NCBI GenBank assembly: GCA_944371445.1
Contig: CALVXR010000034.1
Location: 1-42,408 of the forward strand
Source: an uncultured Bacilli bacterium
Lineage (GTDB): Bacteria; Bacillota_I; Bacilli_A; RF39; UBA660
Length of the DNA stretch: 42,408 bases
Direction of reading: 5' to 3'
Below the pieces are notes generated by a model that worked only from the letters and a program-made list of their open reading frames with translations, did not search any database and had not been told where the DNA came from. Shown here one piece after another: positions 4,731 through 8,523 of the stretch (positions are counted from its first letter, which is position 1; the number at the start of each line of letters is the position of its first letter). The position numbers were made by a program, and so were the translations under genes.

Positions 4731-6113
4731 ATGAATAAAAAAGAATTTTTAGATTATATGTGGAAAGCAGAACAACTATATAGAAAATTTCAAAAAAAAT
4801 GGCTTAATAAATCATATATTATGAGAATATCTGATGGAAATGTAATAAATTTTTCATTTTATGAACAAAGCTTTGCACACTTAGTTGGAATTCAAATCAA
4901 TAAACTTAAAGAAAGTGGTTTAGTTCCTAAAAATTTACAAGCTAATGATATATTAGAATTTATTTTCTTTAATCCTGAAAGATTTTATAGATTAATTATT
5001 CAAAGTGGTTATAAAACAAAATATTTTATTTCAAGCTATTATAAAGAAAAATTAACAGTTATGAAAAATATTTGTGGCTTTTTACCTGCTAGTTTAGGAT
5101 TCATAGTAAAATTTGATACAAATAAAGCTTTTTTAGTAAATGATGAATTAAAACCTAATGTTGAATATTTATTAGGGTATAAAATAGATGACGGATATGG
5201 AATAATAGGAATAAAAAAAAGTTCCTACGGAAATTATTATCCACTTACCGTTTTATATTATGATAAAGATTCTTTGAAAGAATTACTAAAATATCAAACT
5301 TTATTATTACCTACTTATACTAAAGTTAAAAATATAGAAAACGAAATAATTTCTGAATATGGCTTATATGAACAAGAAAAAATAAGAAAATTAAAAATAT
5401 ATAATTCTGTTTTTGAACGTCAATATGGATGTGTAACTAATTTAACAAGTGATTATATAAGAACATTAGAACATACAACTAATCATCTTATTGAAGAAAA
5501 AGAACAAAATAGACGTTTTAAAGAGGAAAATTATGAATTGCAGGTTTCAAATATAAATCTTAGTAAAGAGAATGATGCTTTAAAACAGGAAGTAAAAAAA
5601 TTAAAGGCTATGTTAAAAATAACAGGAGCAAATGAAAATATAGATAAATATTTAAAATTAAAGATGGATATATTTGATGGAGAAGATATTGATAATAGTA
5701 TAATTGATAGAGCTTTTCTTGCATTTACTAATAAAGAAAGAACTTTATTAGAATATTATTATGGTTTAAATGGAAAAGATAAACTATCTTGGAAAGAAAT
5801 CTCTAATATATATGAGATATCGTCAGTTCATTATATAATCAATAAATTAAAAAATGATTTTAAAAATATATGTTTAGGATTAAAAATAAAAAATCCATAT
5901 ATAGAATTACTTACTGATAGAGAAAAACTAATTTCTTTAGCATTTATTCTTCCAAAAGAAGAAAGGGATGCATTTATTTTAAAAAATGGTTTATTTACTT
6001 GTAATAGAGCATCTAATAAAGAAATATCAGAAACACTTGGTATTCCATATGTAAAAGTAAAAAAAGTAATTGAAAGTGCTGAGGAAAAAGTAAGAGAAAT
6101 GGTAAAAAGATAG
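4731..6113 (+). CDS. Hypothetical protein: unknown N-terminal domain, coiled coil, and two sigma-70 region-4-like HTH modules
   Basis: GGGGG RBS, 18 nt after the upstream stop. Residues 252-296 have a heptad-like charged pattern. Residues 325-380 (KERTLLEYYYGLNGKDKLSWKEISNIYEISSVHYIINKLK) and 393-460 (EERDAFILKNGLFTCNRASNKEISETLGIPYVKVKKVIESAEEKV) resemble sigma-70 region 4. Confidence 0.7.
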   Translation: MNKKEFLDYMWKAEQLYRKFQKKWLNKSYIMRISDGNVINFSFYEQSFAHLVGIQINKLKESGLVPKNLQANDILEFIFFNPERFYRLIIQSGYKTKYFISSYYKEKLTVMKNICGFLPASLGFIVKFDTNKAFLVNDELKPNVEYLLGYKIDDGYGIIGIKKSSYGNYYPLTVLYYDKDSLKELLKYQTLLLPTYTKVKNIENEIISEYGLYEQEKIRKLKIYNSVFERQYGCVTNLTSDYIRTLEHTTNHLIEEKEQNRRFKEENYELQVSNINLSKENDALKQEVKKLKAMLKITGANENIDKYLKLKMDIFDGEDIDNSIIDRAFLAFTNKERTLLEYYYGLNGKDKLSWKEISNIYEISSVHYIINKLKNDFKNICLGLKIKNPYIELLTDREKLISLAFILPKEERDAFILKNGLFTCNRASNKEISETLGIPYVKVKKVIESAEEKVREMVKR

Positions 6114-6222
6114 CAATATCTTTTTATTTTTGGTAAAATATTATTGGTGACTAACTATTAGAAGTCAATACATTTTTAAATATTTTTAATAGTTTGTTAT
6201 AAATTGGAATTTATCCCACGCC

Positions 6223-6260
6223 AAAAAACTTCAAAATCATTTTTTTTAAAATTTTTGAAG
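6223..6260 (-). terminator. Hairpin plus T-run downstream of the transposase
   Basis: On the minus strand: CTTCAAAA ... TTTTGAAG followed by TTTTTT. It could alternatively be part of a 3' ncRNA. Confidence 0.45.
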
Positions 6261-6288
6261 GCTGTAAATAATATAGAATTATAAAATA

Positions 6289-7452
6289 TTATTTCAATAA
6301 AGACGGATCAAAATCAATGTTGTTTTTCTCTAATGAATGAATAACTCTAATAAGTTTTTTACAAACATGAGATAAAGCAACACGATGACATTTACCTTCA
6401 GAACGTTTCTTAAGGTAATAATCATAAAAAGTTGGTGAATATCTTAAAATAATCATTGAAGTATTCATAATTGAATATCTTAAATGACCAGAACCATGTT
6501 TAACCATCTTACCATTATTTTGAATGGTACCAGACTCGCTAACACTAGGTTCAAGGCCAGCAAAAGCTAACATTTTATTAGGAGAAGAAAAATTACTAAT
6601 ATCTCCATATTCAGAAAGAATTACGGCTGCAGATAATTCACCTAATCCAGGAATTGATAACATTCTAGGATTTAGTTCTTTGATAATTGTTGAAATTTGT
6701 TTATCTATTGGATCAATTTTATCATTAAAGCTTTTGATAATAGAAACATAAGTAGAAATAAGTAAATCAGTATTTTTATCGTGATGACCAACTGAATTTT
6801 TAGCAAGTTCTTTTAATTTGGCAAATTTAGCATAAGAAAATTTGCCACGAGAAATTTTATAAATAGAATCGAAATCTCTCATTAAAGAAATATGATCAGT
6901 ATTAATATATTTTTCTAAAACATATAATAATGTAGTAGAAAAAGAATTATTAAAAAATGGCTTTAACTCCGGAAAAGTAAGGTCTAATTCATTTGTTAAA
7001 AGCACATAAAATTTACTTCTTTCTTTAACTAATAGTTCTCTATTTCTACATAGTGACTTTAATGTAAAAATGTTGTATAATAAATTTGAATTTGGTTTGT
7101 AAGGAACAGACATAAGATAATTAGCTATAGTTAAACTATCAGCTTTATCGGTCTTAGTTCTACGTAAGCTTCGAGCTTTTAAAAACTGATGAATGATAAG
7201 AGGATTCATTTTCATAAATGAATAACCTTGATTGGTTAAGAACAGTTCCAAATTCTTAGAATAGTGTCCAGTTGCTTCAAAAGCAATTTGGACTTTGGAT
7301 TTATTATAGGATTTCAATAGTTCTAAAAATGATTGAAATCCTTTTTTGCTGTTTTCAAAAGAATTATTTTCAACAATTACTTCACCTGTATTTGAAATAA
7401 TACAGAAATCGTGTTTGTATTTTGATATATCAATACCAATGTAATATATCAT
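6289..7452 (-). CDS. IS110-family transposase (DEDD RuvC-like N-domain plus Tnp C-domain)
   Basis: IGIDISK, FEATGHY and KTDKADS acidic motifs in the N-terminal half. IPGLGELSAAVILSEYGD and LEPSVSESG (conserved Ser) in the C-terminal half. GGAGGTG RBS. Confidence 0.92.
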   Translation of the reverse strand: MIYYIGIDISKYKHDFCIISNTGEVIVENNSFENSKKGFQSFLELLKSYNKSKVQIAFEATGHYSKNLELFLTNQGYSFMKMNPLIIHQFLKARSLRRTKTDKADSLTIANYLMSVPYKPNSNLLYNIFTLKSLCRNRELLVKERSKFYVLLTNELDLTFPELKPFFNNSFSTTLLYVLEKYINTDHISLMRDFDSIYKISRGKFSYAKFAKLKELAKNSVGHHDKNTDLLISTYVSIIKSFNDKIDPIDKQISTIIKELNPRMLSIPGLGELSAAVILSEYGDISNFSSPNKMLAFAGLEPSVSESGTIQNNGKMVKHGSGHLRYSIMNTSMIILRYSPTFYDYYLKKRSEGKCHRVALSHVCKKLIRVIHSLEKNNIDFDPSLLK

Positions 7453-7770
7453 TTATAAGCACCTCCAAAATTAGTTTGTTTGCACTGAATTGTTTGCCAC
7501 AAGGTTTTTAATCATGTAATCACGTAATCTAATAAAACATCGATTAGTTAAAAACTAACGTGTTAACTAACTAATTAACAATTAAATTAAAAATCTGTGG
7601 TTTTAGTCACCAATAACCAGTCCATAAAATGGCTGTAAAAAATGAGAAACAAATCCACAGTGCATTTCTTATTATATATCACGATGTATAATAAGAAAAT
7701 ATAAATAGAAAGGGATCAATCAATAAGAAATTAATTCATATTTCTATAAGATTGATTATACGTGATATAA

Positions 7771-8523
7771 ATGGATTTTAAAGATAAAGTAGTATTAGTT
7801 ACAGGTTCAGCAAAAGGTCTTGGAGCATCTATTATAGAAATGTTTGCATCTTTAAATGCTAATGTAGTAATTAATTATAATAGTAGTTTAAAAGAAGCTT
7901 TAGAATTAGAAAATAAAATAAAAGAAAAATATAATGTAAAAGTACTTAAAATAAAATGTGATATAACAAATGAATTAGAAGTTAAAAATATGGTAAATGA
8001 AATAATAGAAAAACTAGGTAAAATAGATATATTAGTAGGAAATGCAGGAATTACAATCGAAGATTTTTATGAAAACAAAACAGTTGAAAATTTTAAAAAA
8101 ACATTAAATACTAATTTACTTGGTAATTTTATAGTAACAAAAGAAGTTGCGTCTATAATGTATGAAAATAAAAGTGGAAGTATAGTTTATATATCTTCTA
8201 CTGATGGACTTACTTCTTTTTCACCCGTAAATGTTGATTATAATGCATCAAAAGCAGCACTTAATTCACTTACTCACGATATGGCAATAGCGTACGCTCC
8301 ATATGTTAGAGTAAATGCAGTGGCACCAGGTTTTATAGAAACAGATATGATAAAAATAGAAGATAAAGAAATGGAAGAAATGTTTGTAAAAGAAGAAAGT
8401 TCTAAAATATATTTAGGGAGATTTGCTAAAAAAGAAGAAATCGCAAGTGTAGTATGTTTTTTATCAAGTACGCTTGCTTCTTATATAAATAGTGAAATTA
8501 TTAAAGTAGATGGAGGAATGTAA
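7771..8523 (+). CDS. SDR-family oxidoreductase (FabG-like 3-oxoacyl reductase fold)
   Basis: TGSAKGLG dinucleotide-binding motif, NAG, and YNASKAA catalytic YxxxK. 250 aa. Confidence 0.85.
   Translation: MDFKDKVVLVTGSAKGLGASIIEMFASLNANVVINYNSSLKEALELENKIKEKYNVKVLKIKCDITNELEVKNMVNEIIEKLGKIDILVGNAGITIEDFYENKTVENFKKTLNTNLLGNFIVTKEVASIMYENKSGSIVYISSTDGLTSFSPVNVDYNASKAALNSLTHDMAIAYAPYVRVNAVAPGFIETDMIKIEDKEMEEMFVKEESSKIYLGRFAKKEEIASVVCFLSSTLASYINSEIIKVDGGM

What the first reader, a model, noticed from the sequence alone, without database searches (positions are those of the whole stretch)
7595..7660. Candidate bridge-RNA-type programmable loop in the 5' non-coding end of the IS110 element
I read the following on the transposase (minus) strand. 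First comes CUGUGG (7660-7655), then a 19-nt strand AUUUGUUUCUCAUUUUUUA. An inner hairpin CAGCC-AUUUUAU-GGaCUG follows, then a 17-nt strand GUUAUUGGUGACUAAAA, then CCACAG (7600-7595). This forms a closed stem around a large internal loop with an inner hairpin. The 3' loop strand carries the 14 nt that pair perfectly with the other end of the element. That layout matches the target- and donor-binding loops described in 2024 for IS621-type bridge RNAs and IS1111/IS110 seekRNAs. I see no strong internal promoter, which fits expression from an end-junction or external promoter. Caveats: the 5' half of the stem lies outside the boundary defined by the 14-mer, a 6-bp stem in AT-rich DNA can arise by chance, and I could not identify a convincing second loop by eye.
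Basis: partly seen in the sequence, partly recalled or inferred. Interest (0 to 1): 0.65.

Follow-up and report, generated by a model that had tools for sequence, protein, structure and literature searches.

The report
Bridge RNA target loop of IS110 element
The stem-loop is the target-binding loop of a guide ("bridge") RNA in the 5' end of an IS110-family insertion sequence; this is a known mechanism, seen here in a new element from an uncultured gut bacterium that inserts between ribosome-binding sites and start codons.

Summary
It is an ordinary member of a kind described in 2024.

**What it is**
- The gene at 6289-7452 (-) encodes an IS110-family RNA-guided transposase.
- Comparison with more than 50 related insertions puts the true left end at 7762, with core CA at 7764-7763. 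The 14-mer does not mark the end, so the whole stem-loop lies inside the element.
- The loop is the target-binding loop.
  - Its 3' strand is a right target guide (UUAUUGG), two core-binding bases (UG) and a handshake guide (ACUAA).

**Evidence**
- Both loop strands covary with the insertion flanks across loci (permutation p < 5e-5).
- The core-binding bases track the core in 50 of 50 loci.
- Joining the two ends gives TTGACT-N17-TATAAT in 42 of 42 loci.
- A covariance model built here finds the RNA upstream of distant relatives only.

**Caveats**
- There is no RNA or activity data, and no empty site was found.
- This copy's left guide matches its own flank poorly.

**Target**
- The targets are Shine-Dalgarno/start-codon regions, as reported for IS900 and IS901.

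The parts
6150..7762 (-). The insertion sequence proper: LE 7762-7453 (310 nt), transposase gene, RE 6288-6150 (139 nt). About 1615 bp when one copy of the core is counted.
   Evidence: Conservation among more than 50 insertions in different contexts starts at C[A/T]|CGTATAAT and stops at AATAGTTAG[T/A]|C[A/T]. IS-only contigs of 1.56-1.72 kb agree with this length.
7763..7764 (-). Core dinucleotide CA at the left junction.
   Evidence: CA or CT is present at both junctions of every locus. It is matched by the core-binding bases of both loops in 50/50 loci.
6148..6149 (-). Core dinucleotide CA at the right junction.
6289..7452 (-). IS110-family DEDD/Ser transposase (bridge recombinase), 387 aa. 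Candidate catalytic residues are D8, E59, D102, D105 and S274.
   Evidence: Pfam PF01548 + PF02371. NCBIfam NF033542 'IS110 family RNA-guided transposase', 196 bits against a cut-off of 140. PDB sequence search: ISCro4 transposase 8e-22, IS621 transposase 5e-20. Motif positions.
7755..7760 (-). TATAAT, the -10 box of the junction promoter, at the very start of LE.
   Evidence: RE -35 + 13 nt + core + CG + TATAAT gives TTGACT-N17-TATAAT in 42/42 loci that have both ends.
6163..6168 (-). TTGACT, the -35 box of the junction promoter, 13 nt from the right end.
7715..7756 (-). 5' stem-loop (hairpin A) of the transcript that would start at the junction promoter.
   Evidence: Fold. Helices 96% and 87% paired across 54 sequences, with compensatory changes.
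7665..7698 (-). Hairpin B, a palindrome that contains the internal -10 TATAAT (7676-7671). In relatives it lies within TTGAWT-N17-TATAAT; this copy's -35 is TTTTCT.
   Evidence: (many UA/AU swaps). A DNA palindrome and an RNA hairpin cannot be told apart from sequence.
7659..7663 (-). 5' strand of long-range helix P1 (GCACU). It begins 7-8 nt after the internal -10.
   Evidence: It pairs with 7486-7482. 99.6% of cells are paired, with G:C to A:U compensation in 7 sequences.
7482..7486 (-). 3' strand of P1 (AGUGC). It closes the two-loop RNA of about 182 nt (7663-7482).
7595..7660 (-). Target-binding loop (the finding): closing stem, large internal loop and inner hairpin.
7636..7649 (-). 5' loop strand, UUUCUCAUUUUUUA, holding the left target guide (same sense as the LT flank) and ending in UA.
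   Evidence: Identity to the LT flank across 43 loci: 259/344 observed against 220 +/- 5.8 when flanks are permuted (z = 6.8, 0 of 20,000). This copy matches its own flank poorly.
7618..7635 (-). Inner hairpin CAGCC / GGaCUG.
   Evidence: 98% of cells paired. 3 of its 5 pairs show compensatory changes (C:G to A:U or U:A).
7610..7616 (-). Right target guide, UUAUUGG.
   Evidence: Complementary 7/7 to the RT flank CCAATAA at 6147-6141. Across 33 loci, guide positions 4-7 match the flank in 68/132 cells against 44 +/- 3.7 when permuted (0 of 20,000).
7608..7609 (-). Core-binding UG of the target-binding loop.
   Evidence: UG goes with core CA and AG with core CT in 50/50 loci. Distant relatives pair AA with TT and UA with TA.
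7603..7607 (-). Handshake guide, ACU(AA), complementary to the last nucleotides of RE (TTAGT, 6154-6150).
   Evidence: The first handshake base tracks the last RE base (A with T, U with A) in 40/40 loci. A C-to-A change in this copy extends the match to 5 nt and breaks one stem pair.
7504..7594 (-). Donor-binding loop: closing stem 7594-7586 with 7512-7504, inner stem and hairpin 7564-7536.
   Evidence: The closing stem has compensatory pairs, and the inner hairpin is deleted in some relatives.
7566..7573 (-). Left donor guide, UAGUUAGU (followed by UA at 7565-7564).
   Evidence: Identical to the RE end TAGTTAGT at 6157-6150, so it can pair with the bottom strand. Invariant in all relatives.
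7519..7526 (-). Right donor guide UACG, core-binding UG and handshake AU.
   Evidence: UACG-UG is complementary to CA-CGTA at the LE start (7764-7759). UG/AG tracks the core in 50/50 loci.
6141..6147 (-). Right target flank, CCAATAA. This is host DNA; on the + strand it reads TTATTGG, followed by the core TG, together the Shine-Dalgarno region of the downstream gene.
   Evidence: It lies outside the conserved element and pairs with the right target guide.
7765..7773 (-). Left target flank, CAT-TTATAT. This is host DNA, and CAT is the start codon of the gene at 7771-8523 (+).

Best explanation
The stem-loop at 7660-7595 (minus strand) is the target-binding loop of a bridge RNA. The RNA is encoded in the 310-nt left end of a roughly 1.6-kb IS110-group insertion sequence.

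**Shown by sequence comparison**
- The element runs from 7762 to 6150 and is bounded on both sides by the core dinucleotide CA.
- The RNA has two successive internal-loop modules enclosed by a long-range helix (7663-7482).
- In the first module:
  - the 5' strand resembles the left flank;
  - the 3' strand is complementary to the right flank (7 nt), the core (2 nt) and the last 3-5 nt of the element's right end.
- In the second module:
  - one strand repeats the right-end sequence TAGTTAGT;
  - the other is complementary to CA-CGTA at the left end.

**Inferred by analogy with IS621**
- Excision makes a circle in which the right and left ends abut.
- The abutted ends create the promoter TTGACT-N17-TATAAT, which drives the RNA and the transposase.
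- The transposase binds the RNA. The first loop pairs with both strands of a target and the second loop with both strands of the circle junction.
- Strands are cut at the core and exchanged. The handshake bases pair with the incoming right-end strand.

**Target**
The guides of this family resemble a Shine-Dalgarno sequence (AAGGAG or AGGUGA) and its downstream spacer. The elements therefore land between the ribosome-binding site and the start codon of a gene, facing away from it.
For: **Protein**
- Pfam PF01548 + PF02371.
- NCBIfam NF033542 'IS110 family RNA-guided transposase', above its cut-off.
- Homology to the IS621 and ISCro4 transposases in the PDB.

**Boundaries**
- Alignments of 54 left and 56 right regions from different genomic contexts.

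**Right target guide against the right flank**
- Permutation test on 33 loci: 0 of 20,000 permutations reach the observed match.

**Left target guide against the left flank**
- z = 6.8, 0 of 20,000 permutations, 43 loci.

**Core and handshake bases**
- Core-binding bases in both loops match the core in 50/50 loci; handshake base against the last RE base in 40/40.
- The same logic holds in relatives at 45-61% protein identity with cores TT, TA, CA and CT.

**Structure**
- 93.6% of cells paired against 30-45% in slid controls.
- Compensatory pairs in P1, the inner hairpin and the donor-loop stem.
- Both 5' hairpins are supported.

**Junction promoter**
- 42/42 loci.

**Covariance model R1**
- One hit in the window.
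- Hits directly upstream of the transposase gene in 9 distant loci that were not used to build the model (E 1e-13 to 1e-29).
- No hit in 31 unrelated AT-rich metagenome loci.

**Published architecture it matches**
- 5' stem-loop plus two internal-loop stem-loops; guide strand rules; LE longer than RE; junction promoter (PMC11208160).
- Handshake guides (PMC11208158).
- Pairing of right target guide and handshake guide with the right junction of an integrated copy (PMC13626964).
Against: - There is no transcript, binding or recombination data.
- Rfam 15 has no match, and the published bridge-RNA models could not be run.
- No empty site was found for this locus. Other samples carry the same insertion, and the one junction-spanning match in the metagenome scan is an unrelated gene.
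- This copy's left guide matches its own left flank in only 3-4 of 7-9 positions. Across loci the left-guide register varies by +/- 1 nt.
- The 'UA' that ends the left target guide and left donor guide does not change in elements with core CT.
- The CA/CT and T/A covariations may reflect few independent events.
- The closing-stem bases are nearly invariant, and CCACAG could instead pair with CUUGUGG at 7503-7497.
Confidence: 0.88

Rival explanations
1. The 14-nt match is a terminal or sub-terminal inverted repeat bound by the transposase, as in IS1111-type elements, and the stem-loop is incidental.
For: The inverted repeat is perfect over 14 nt and unlikely by chance. The IS1111 group is defined by sub-terminal inverted repeats of 7-17 bp (PMC11208160).
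Against: - Seven of the 14 bases at the right side lie outside the element and differ from locus to locus.
- The loop copy changes with those bases.
- The left copy is 146 nt inside the true left end.
- The long non-coding end is upstream of the gene, which is the IS110-group arrangement rather than the IS1111 one (PMC11208160).
Confidence: 0.03
2. The conserved structures are a cis-regulatory 5' leader of the transposase mRNA, controlling translation or stability, with no guide function.
For: - The structures lie between promoter-like sites and the transposase ribosome-binding site.
- There is no terminator before the gene.
- Earlier work proposed that IS110 non-coding ends regulate expression (PMC11208160).
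Against: A leader has no reason to covary with host DNA on both sides of each insertion, with the core, or with the far end of the element.
Confidence: 0.05
3. The stem-loop is a chance fold in AT-rich DNA.
For: A single-sequence z-score of only -2.7. Promoter-like sites in the region are no more frequent than in shuffles.
Against: Conservation with compensatory changes in 49 relatives, and covariance-model hits in distant relatives only at the homologous place.
Confidence: 0.01

Closest known systems
IS621 bridge RNA (IS110 group; Durrant et al. 2024, PMC11208160; Hiraizumi et al. 2024, PMC11208158)
   Same: - DEDD + Ser recombinase.
- RNA encoded in the long left end.
- A 5' stem-loop followed by a target-binding loop and then a donor-binding loop.
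- Left guides have the sense of the top strand, and right guides are complementary to it.
- A dinucleotide core is read by the right guides.
- Handshake bases directly follow the core-binding bases.
- A -35 in RE and a -10 in LE form a junction promoter.
   Different: - Protein similarity is low: E about 1e-20, found as two matched stretches.
- The core is CA or CT (TT or TA in relatives), not only CT.
- The right target guide is 7 nt, against 4 nt in IS621.
- The handshake guide is 3-5 nt, against 2 nt.
- A long-range helix encloses both loops.
- The left end is 310 nt with two upstream hairpins, and relatives have an internal promoter-like site directly before the RNA.
- Targets are translation-initiation regions rather than REP elements.
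IS900 / IS901 (IS110 family, mycobacteria)
   Same: Both insert between the Shine-Dalgarno sequence and the start codon of host genes (PMC2942039, citing Doran 1997 and Inglis 2003). From my own memory, not checked here, the IS900 target consensus is CATG-N4-6-C-N-CCTT. That has the same shape as CAT-N5-7-C[A/T]-CCTT seen here.
   Different: - Different phylum and base composition.
- There is no long antisense 'hed'-like reading frame in this element; only 75-aa and 42-aa frames lie on the opposite strand.
- I did not compare the sequences.
IS1111-group seekRNA (Siddiquee et al. 2024, PMC11187229)
   Same: A short RNA from the non-coding region carries matches to both strands of the target, and a junction promoter forms on the circle.
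   Different: In IS1111 the non-coding region and RNA are downstream of the gene and the element has sub-terminal inverted repeats. Here the RNA is upstream and the apparent repeat is a guide-to-junction match. The same paper's IS110-type example, ISEc21, has an upstream non-coding region as here.

Membership tests
IS110-group bridge RNA system (IS621 type) | Encoded next to a DEDD (RuvC-like) + Tnp (Ser) IS110-family recombinase. | tested here: met
   (D8, E59, D102, D105, S274 by motif position).
IS110-group bridge RNA system (IS621 type) | The long non-coding end is upstream of the gene (LE longer than RE) and holds the RNA. | tested here: met
   LE is 310 nt and RE 139 nt. The RNA model hits only in LE.
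IS110-group bridge RNA system (IS621 type) | A sigma-70 promoter is reconstituted across RE-core-LE in the circular form. | tested here: met
   TTGACT-N17-TATAAT in 42/42 loci, in silico. Promoter activity was not tested.
IS110-group bridge RNA system (IS621 type) | [quoted passage not shown] | tested here: met
   An extra enclosing helix and a second upstream hairpin are also present.
IS110-group bridge RNA system (IS621 type) | The first loop's two strands covary with the left (bottom-strand pairing) and right (top-strand pairing) target flanks. | tested here: met
   The right guide is met and the left guide. The left-guide register is variable, and this copy's own match is poor.
IS110-group bridge RNA system (IS621 type) | The second loop's strands match the donor: RE end (bottom strand) and LE start (top strand). 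| tested here: met
   The left donor guide equals 8 nt of the RE end. The right donor guide is complementary to CGTA plus the core. The donor ends are almost invariant, so only the core could covary.
IS110-group bridge RNA system (IS621 type) | The core dinucleotide is shared by donor and target and is read by all four guides. | tested here: inconclusive
   The right target and right donor guides track the core in 50/50 loci. The left target and left donor guides end in UA whether the core is CA or CT.
IS110-group bridge RNA system (IS621 type) | Handshake bases after the core-binding bases pair with the non-cognate DNA. | tested here: met
   The target-loop handshake base tracks the last RE base in 40/40 loci. 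The donor-loop handshake base fits the usual T at the end of the left flank but was not tested rigorously.
IS110-group bridge RNA system (IS621 type) | The RNA is expressed, binds the recombinase and is required for and programs recombination. | not testable with these tools
   No expression or biochemical data are available.
IS110-group bridge RNA system (IS621 type) | A match to a curated or published covariance model. | tested here: not met
   No Rfam 15 match at E <= 10. I could not tell whether Rfam holds such a family, and the published models were not available.
IS1111-group seekRNA system | The non-coding region and RNA lie downstream of the transposase gene, and the element has sub-terminal inverted repeats. 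| tested here: not met
   The RNA is upstream. The 14-nt repeat straddles the right boundary.
IS900-like target preference | Oriented insertion between the Shine-Dalgarno sequence and the start codon. | tested here: met
   - CAT lies 5-7 nt from the core in 36 of 47 loci.
- The flanks are open reading frames in 34/40 loci, against 5/80 in control frames.
- The right flanks are complements of Shine-Dalgarno sequences.

The most novel reading that the evidence does not exclude
This Firmicutes/'Bacilli' subfamily may differ from IS621 in three linked ways.
- **A compact RNA with its own promoter.** The bridge RNA would be a unit of about 182 nt closed by a long-range helix. It would be made from its own promoter (TTGAWT-N17-TATAAT, ending 7 nt before the helix) even in integrated copies.
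- **Guides that mimic translation signals.** The guides would copy a Shine-Dalgarno sequence and the spacer before a start codon. This would give a mechanistic explanation for the long-known IS900-type habit of landing between ribosome-binding site and start codon. It would also give each genome hundreds of near-cognate targets, with choice tuned by 3-4 variable guide bases.
- **A locked copy.** In this copy a C-to-A change lengthens the handshake pairing to 5 nt. By the IS621 rules (pairing of the handshake guide with the integrated right junction blocks strand exchange), that change would disfavour excision.
Probability: 0.3. Interest if true: 0.45.

Novelty: new member of a known kind. Interest (0 to 1): 0.3.

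Why it matters
- **Annotation.** It correctly places the boundaries, core, guides and both loops of an unannotated IS110 element from uncultured gut bacteria.
- **A caution for reading such elements.** An apparent "terminal inverted repeat" in this family can be the footprint of guide-to-junction pairing.
- **A natural data set.** More than 50 natural guide/target pairs, with a longer right guide and longer handshake segment than IS621, could inform design rules for bridge recombinases.
- **A biological link.** It connects RNA guidance to the old observation that some IS110 members insert into translation-initiation signals.
- **Limit.** None of this changes the known mechanism.

Tried and rejected
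- **Rfam 15.** A scan of 5800-8000 at E <= 10 gave only two chance-level matches inside the coding region.
- **Other copies in the window.** None were found.
- **Empty-site search.**
  - An exact 20-mer across the predicted uninterrupted target found 31 metagenome stretches. None is the orthologous locus. One (L094) is a different gene with the same 27-nt ribosome-binding region.
  - Contigs that encode the identical downstream protein all carry the same insertion.
- **Assembled circle or tandem junction.** Among 110 loci I found only L030, where the flank merely resembles the left end.
- **Terminal inverted repeat.** Rejected on the boundaries.
- **Alternative fold.** CCACAG paired with the downstream CUUGUGG, plus UUGUUU with AAACAA: the second helix is poorly kept (75% paired). 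The first cannot be excluded.
- **Promoter scan.** The number of sites is not above shuffles in this AT-rich DNA. The promoter argument therefore rests on conservation across loci, not on the scan.
- **Technical note.** I first thought loci L002-L074 were missing from the script machine. They were inside one multi-record file.

Full report
**1. The observation**

- CUGUGG (7660-7655)
- a 19-nt strand (7654-7636)
- the hairpin CAGCC-AUUUUAU-GGaCUG (7635-7618)
- a 17-nt strand (7617-7601)
- CCACAG (7600-7595)

The 14 nt at 7603-7616 are perfectly complementary to 6141-6154. Such a sequence is not expected twice in the window: shuffles give a mean of 0.03 matches, and 0 of 100 reach 2. The 66-mer folds as drawn, but only modestly better than shuffles (z = -2.72). 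The case therefore rests on comparison with relatives.

**2. The gene and its relatives**

The reading frame at 6289-7452 (-) is an IS110-family transposase.
- It has the Pfam domains DEDD_Tnp_IS110 and Transposase_20.
- It scores 196 bits on NCBIfam's 'IS110 family RNA-guided transposase' model, whose cut-off is 140.
- Both halves match the solved ISCro4 and IS621 transposases (8e-22 and 5e-20).

A scan of one genome per species returned 73 related loci. Most come from uncultured gut 'Bacilli' or Tenericutes-like genomes, and protein identity ranges from 92% down to 45%. Several are whole contigs of 1.56-1.72 kb, which is the size expected for a repeat that assembles on its own.

**3. The true boundaries**

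I aligned 54 upstream regions and 56 downstream regions taken from different genomic contexts.
- Conservation begins at C[A/T]-CGTATAATCAATC.
- It ends at TTGACTTYTAATAGTTAG[T/A]-C[A/T].

In the window this gives:
- left flank ...CCATTTATAT (ending at 7765)
- core CA (7764-7763)
- left end starting CGTATAAT (7762 onward)
- right end finishing ...AATAGTTAGT (6150)
- core CA (6149-6148)
- right flank CCAATAATATT (6147 downward)

The core is a dinucleotide, not a trinucleotide. Loci such as L038 (RE-CT-TTCT, left junction CT-CG) and L010 (RE-CA-TCTCC) share only two bases between their two junctions. LE is 310 nt and RE 139 nt, and the element is about 1615 bp.

The 14-mer at the right is not the terminus. 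It is 5 nt of element, 2 nt of core and 7 nt of host DNA.

**4. The loop as a target-binding loop**

In IS621 (PMC11208160; PMC11208158):
[quoted passage not shown] - the next two bases, the handshake guide, pair with the end of the donor's left half after strand exchange.

In an integrated copy, the right target guide and the handshake guide together pair with the right junction (PMC13626964).

Here the 3' strand reads UUAUUGG-UG-ACUAA. That is complementary to TTAGT-CA-CCAATAA, the right junction.

Results across loci:
- **Right target guide.** Among 33 loci with both parts available, guide and right flank match in 164 of 231 positions, against 131 +/- 4 when flanks are permuted. For the variable positions 4-7 the match is 68 of 132 against 44 +/- 3.7. 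No permutation out of 20,000 reaches the observed value.
- **Core-binding bases.** They are UG where the core is CA and AG where it is CT, in both loops, in 50 of 50 loci.
- **Handshake guide.** Its first base is A where the element ends in T and U where it ends in A, in 40 of 40 loci.
- **5' strand.** It resembles the left flank in 259 of 344 positions, against 220 +/- 5.8 permuted (z = 6.8, 0 of 20,000), when a register slip of +/- 1 nt is allowed. At fixed registers the signal is weaker, with p = 0.0002 to 0.007.

Some loci match strikingly well, for example L017 at 9 of 9 and L066 at 8 of 9. The window's own copy matches its left flank in only 3-4 positions, or 7 of 8 with a one-base bulge. 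It either landed on a half-matched site or has drifted since.

**5. Distant relatives**

Loci at 45-61% protein identity keep the same scaffold. In each of them, the best complement of the loop's 3' strand downstream of the gene lies exactly after the -35-like box. It reads element end, then core, then flank. The cores are TT (L043, L044, L061), TA (L060), CA (L057) and CT (L059, L064), each mirrored by AA, UA, UG or AG in the loop. This adds independent events to the CA/CT contrast, which within the close relatives could otherwise be a single split.

**6. The second loop**

The donor-binding loop follows immediately.
- Its closing stem is 7594-7586 with 7512-7504. That stem shows compensatory changes, although the alignment of divergent subgroups is imperfect.
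- A 5' strand contains UAGUUAGU (7573-7566), identical to the last eight bases of the right end. It is followed by UA, just as the first loop's 5' strand ends in UA.
- An inner stem with a hairpin spans 7564-7536. The hairpin is deleted in some relatives.
- A 3' strand contains UACG-UG-AU (7526-7519), complementary to CA-CGTA at the left end.

A long-range helix, GCACU 7663-7659 with AGUGC 7486-7482, encloses both loops. It changes G:C to A:U in seven sequences. Over the whole proposed structure, 93.6% of cells are paired, against 30-45% in slid controls.

CCACAG can also pair with CUUGUGG at 7503-7497, which the single-sequence minimum-energy fold prefers. These bases hardly vary, so the junction geometry stays open.

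**7. Promoters and the 5' part**

Joining the right end, the core and the left end gives TTGACT-N17-TATAAT in all 42 loci that have both ends. This is the arrangement reported for IS621 and other family members.

The first 99 nt of the left end form two hairpins, at 7756-7715 and 7698-7665. Both are supported by compensatory changes: 85% of cells are paired against 27-44% in slid controls, and 12 pairs change on both sides.

The second hairpin is also a DNA palindrome. It contains a perfect TATAAT (7676-7671) that ends 7 nt before the long-range helix. Most relatives have TTGAAT, TTGATT or TTGATA 17 nt upstream of it, while this copy has TTTTCT after a 4-nt deletion. The RNA may therefore also be made from integrated copies. 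That is an inference.

The generic promoter scan is uninformative in DNA with 25% G+C: it finds 18 sites against 13.7 +/- 3.7 in shuffles.

**8. A covariance model**

Model R1 was built from 49 relatives with this structure.
- It finds one hit in the 42-kb window, the left end.
- It finds full-length hits directly upstream of the transposase gene in nine distant loci that were not used to build it (E 1e-13 to 1e-29).
- It finds nothing in 31 unrelated AT-rich metagenome loci.

Rfam 15 gave no match.

**9. The targets**

On the left side a CAT lies 5-7 nt from the core in 36 of 47 loci. The flank read away from the element is an open frame to the end of the available sequence in 34 of 40 loci, against 5 of 80 in shifted frames. 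On the right side the flank is the complement of a Shine-Dalgarno sequence (CCTT, CCTA, CCTC or CCAA).

The elements therefore sit between the ribosome-binding site and the start codon, facing away from the gene. In the window the affected gene is the short-chain dehydrogenase at 7771-8523. Its GGTG now lies 1.6 kb away, at 6146-6149.

This habit is already reported for IS900 and IS901 of the same family (PMC2942039). The consensus I recall for IS900 was not verified here.

**10. What is missing**

There is no expression, binding or activity evidence. No empty site was found: the metagenome scan hit only unrelated DNA, and other samples carry the same insertion. No assembled circle junction was found.

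**11. Verdict**

It is a new, well-resolved member of the IS110 bridge-RNA class, with subfamily features:
- a 7-nt right guide
- a 3-5-nt handshake guide
- an enclosing helix
- a likely internal promoter
- translation-initiation targets

It is not a new kind of system.

Noticed in passing
window 6141-6149 and 7765-7773; gene 7771-8523 (+): The element separates the short-chain dehydrogenase gene from its Shine-Dalgarno sequence. Across the family, insertions lie 5-7 nt upstream of start codons and face away from the gene, as reported for IS900 and IS901. The effect on expression of the downstream operon is unknown.
   Followed up: partly
window 7497-7503 versus 7595-7600 and 7655-7660: CCACAG can pair with either CUGUGG (upstream) or CUUGUGG (downstream). 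The single-sequence minimum-energy fold prefers the downstream partner. This could be an alternative conformation or a three-way junction, and the bases are too invariant to decide.
   Followed up: partly
window 7636-7649 versus 7765-7773: This copy's left target guide matches its own left flank poorly (3-4 positions), whereas its right guide matches perfectly. It may be a half-matched insertion or later drift.
   Followed up: partly
window 7604: A C-to-A change, shared with L073, breaks a G:C pair of the closing stem and lengthens the handshake complementarity to the right end from 3 to 5 nt.
   Followed up: partly
window 7755-7782 (-) and 6140-6168 (-): Hybrid promoter-like sites span element and flank: TTTAAA-16-TATAAT at the left junction and TTGACT-17-AATAAT reading out of the right end. 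They might drive the RNA in the integrated state, or antisense transcription into the 3' end of the neighbouring gene.
   Followed up: no
window 6190-6222 (-); RE of all loci: A conserved block, GGCGTGGGAT..TTCCAATTTATAAC, lies between the hairpin that follows the transposase gene (about 6260-6224) and the -35 box. Its function is unknown.
   Followed up: no
L003, L008, L037 (alignment A1, columns 301-383): An extra 80-100 nt sits inside the left end, between the two upstream hairpins. It contains a perfect palindrome and a short GC-containing hairpin, and looks like a nested small insertion.
   Followed up: no
L012, L062, L031, L033 (alignment A2): The right ends are reorganised and longer. 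A second copy of the post-gene hairpin and the GGCGTGG-like block appears further downstream.
   Followed up: no
L030 3775-3800: The right flank, CGTATTAGAG, is not like a Shine-Dalgarno complement and does not match the element's right guide. It resembles the first bases of a left end. This may be an off-target event or a rearrangement.
   Followed up: partly
L020, L009, L031: Short contigs carrying little besides the IS are binned into Methanobrevibacter, Muribaculaceae and Bacteroides genomes. This is probably mis-binning of a repeat rather than a real host range.
   Followed up: no
window 4731-6113 (+): A 460-aa protein has no Pfam family and only sub-threshold similarity to sigma-70 region 4 at its C-terminus.
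   Followed up: no
L094 2860-2895: An unrelated metagenome contig carries 27 nt identical to the predicted uninterrupted target, in front of a different gene. This shows how generic such ribosome-binding-site targets are in AT-rich genomes.
   Followed up: yes
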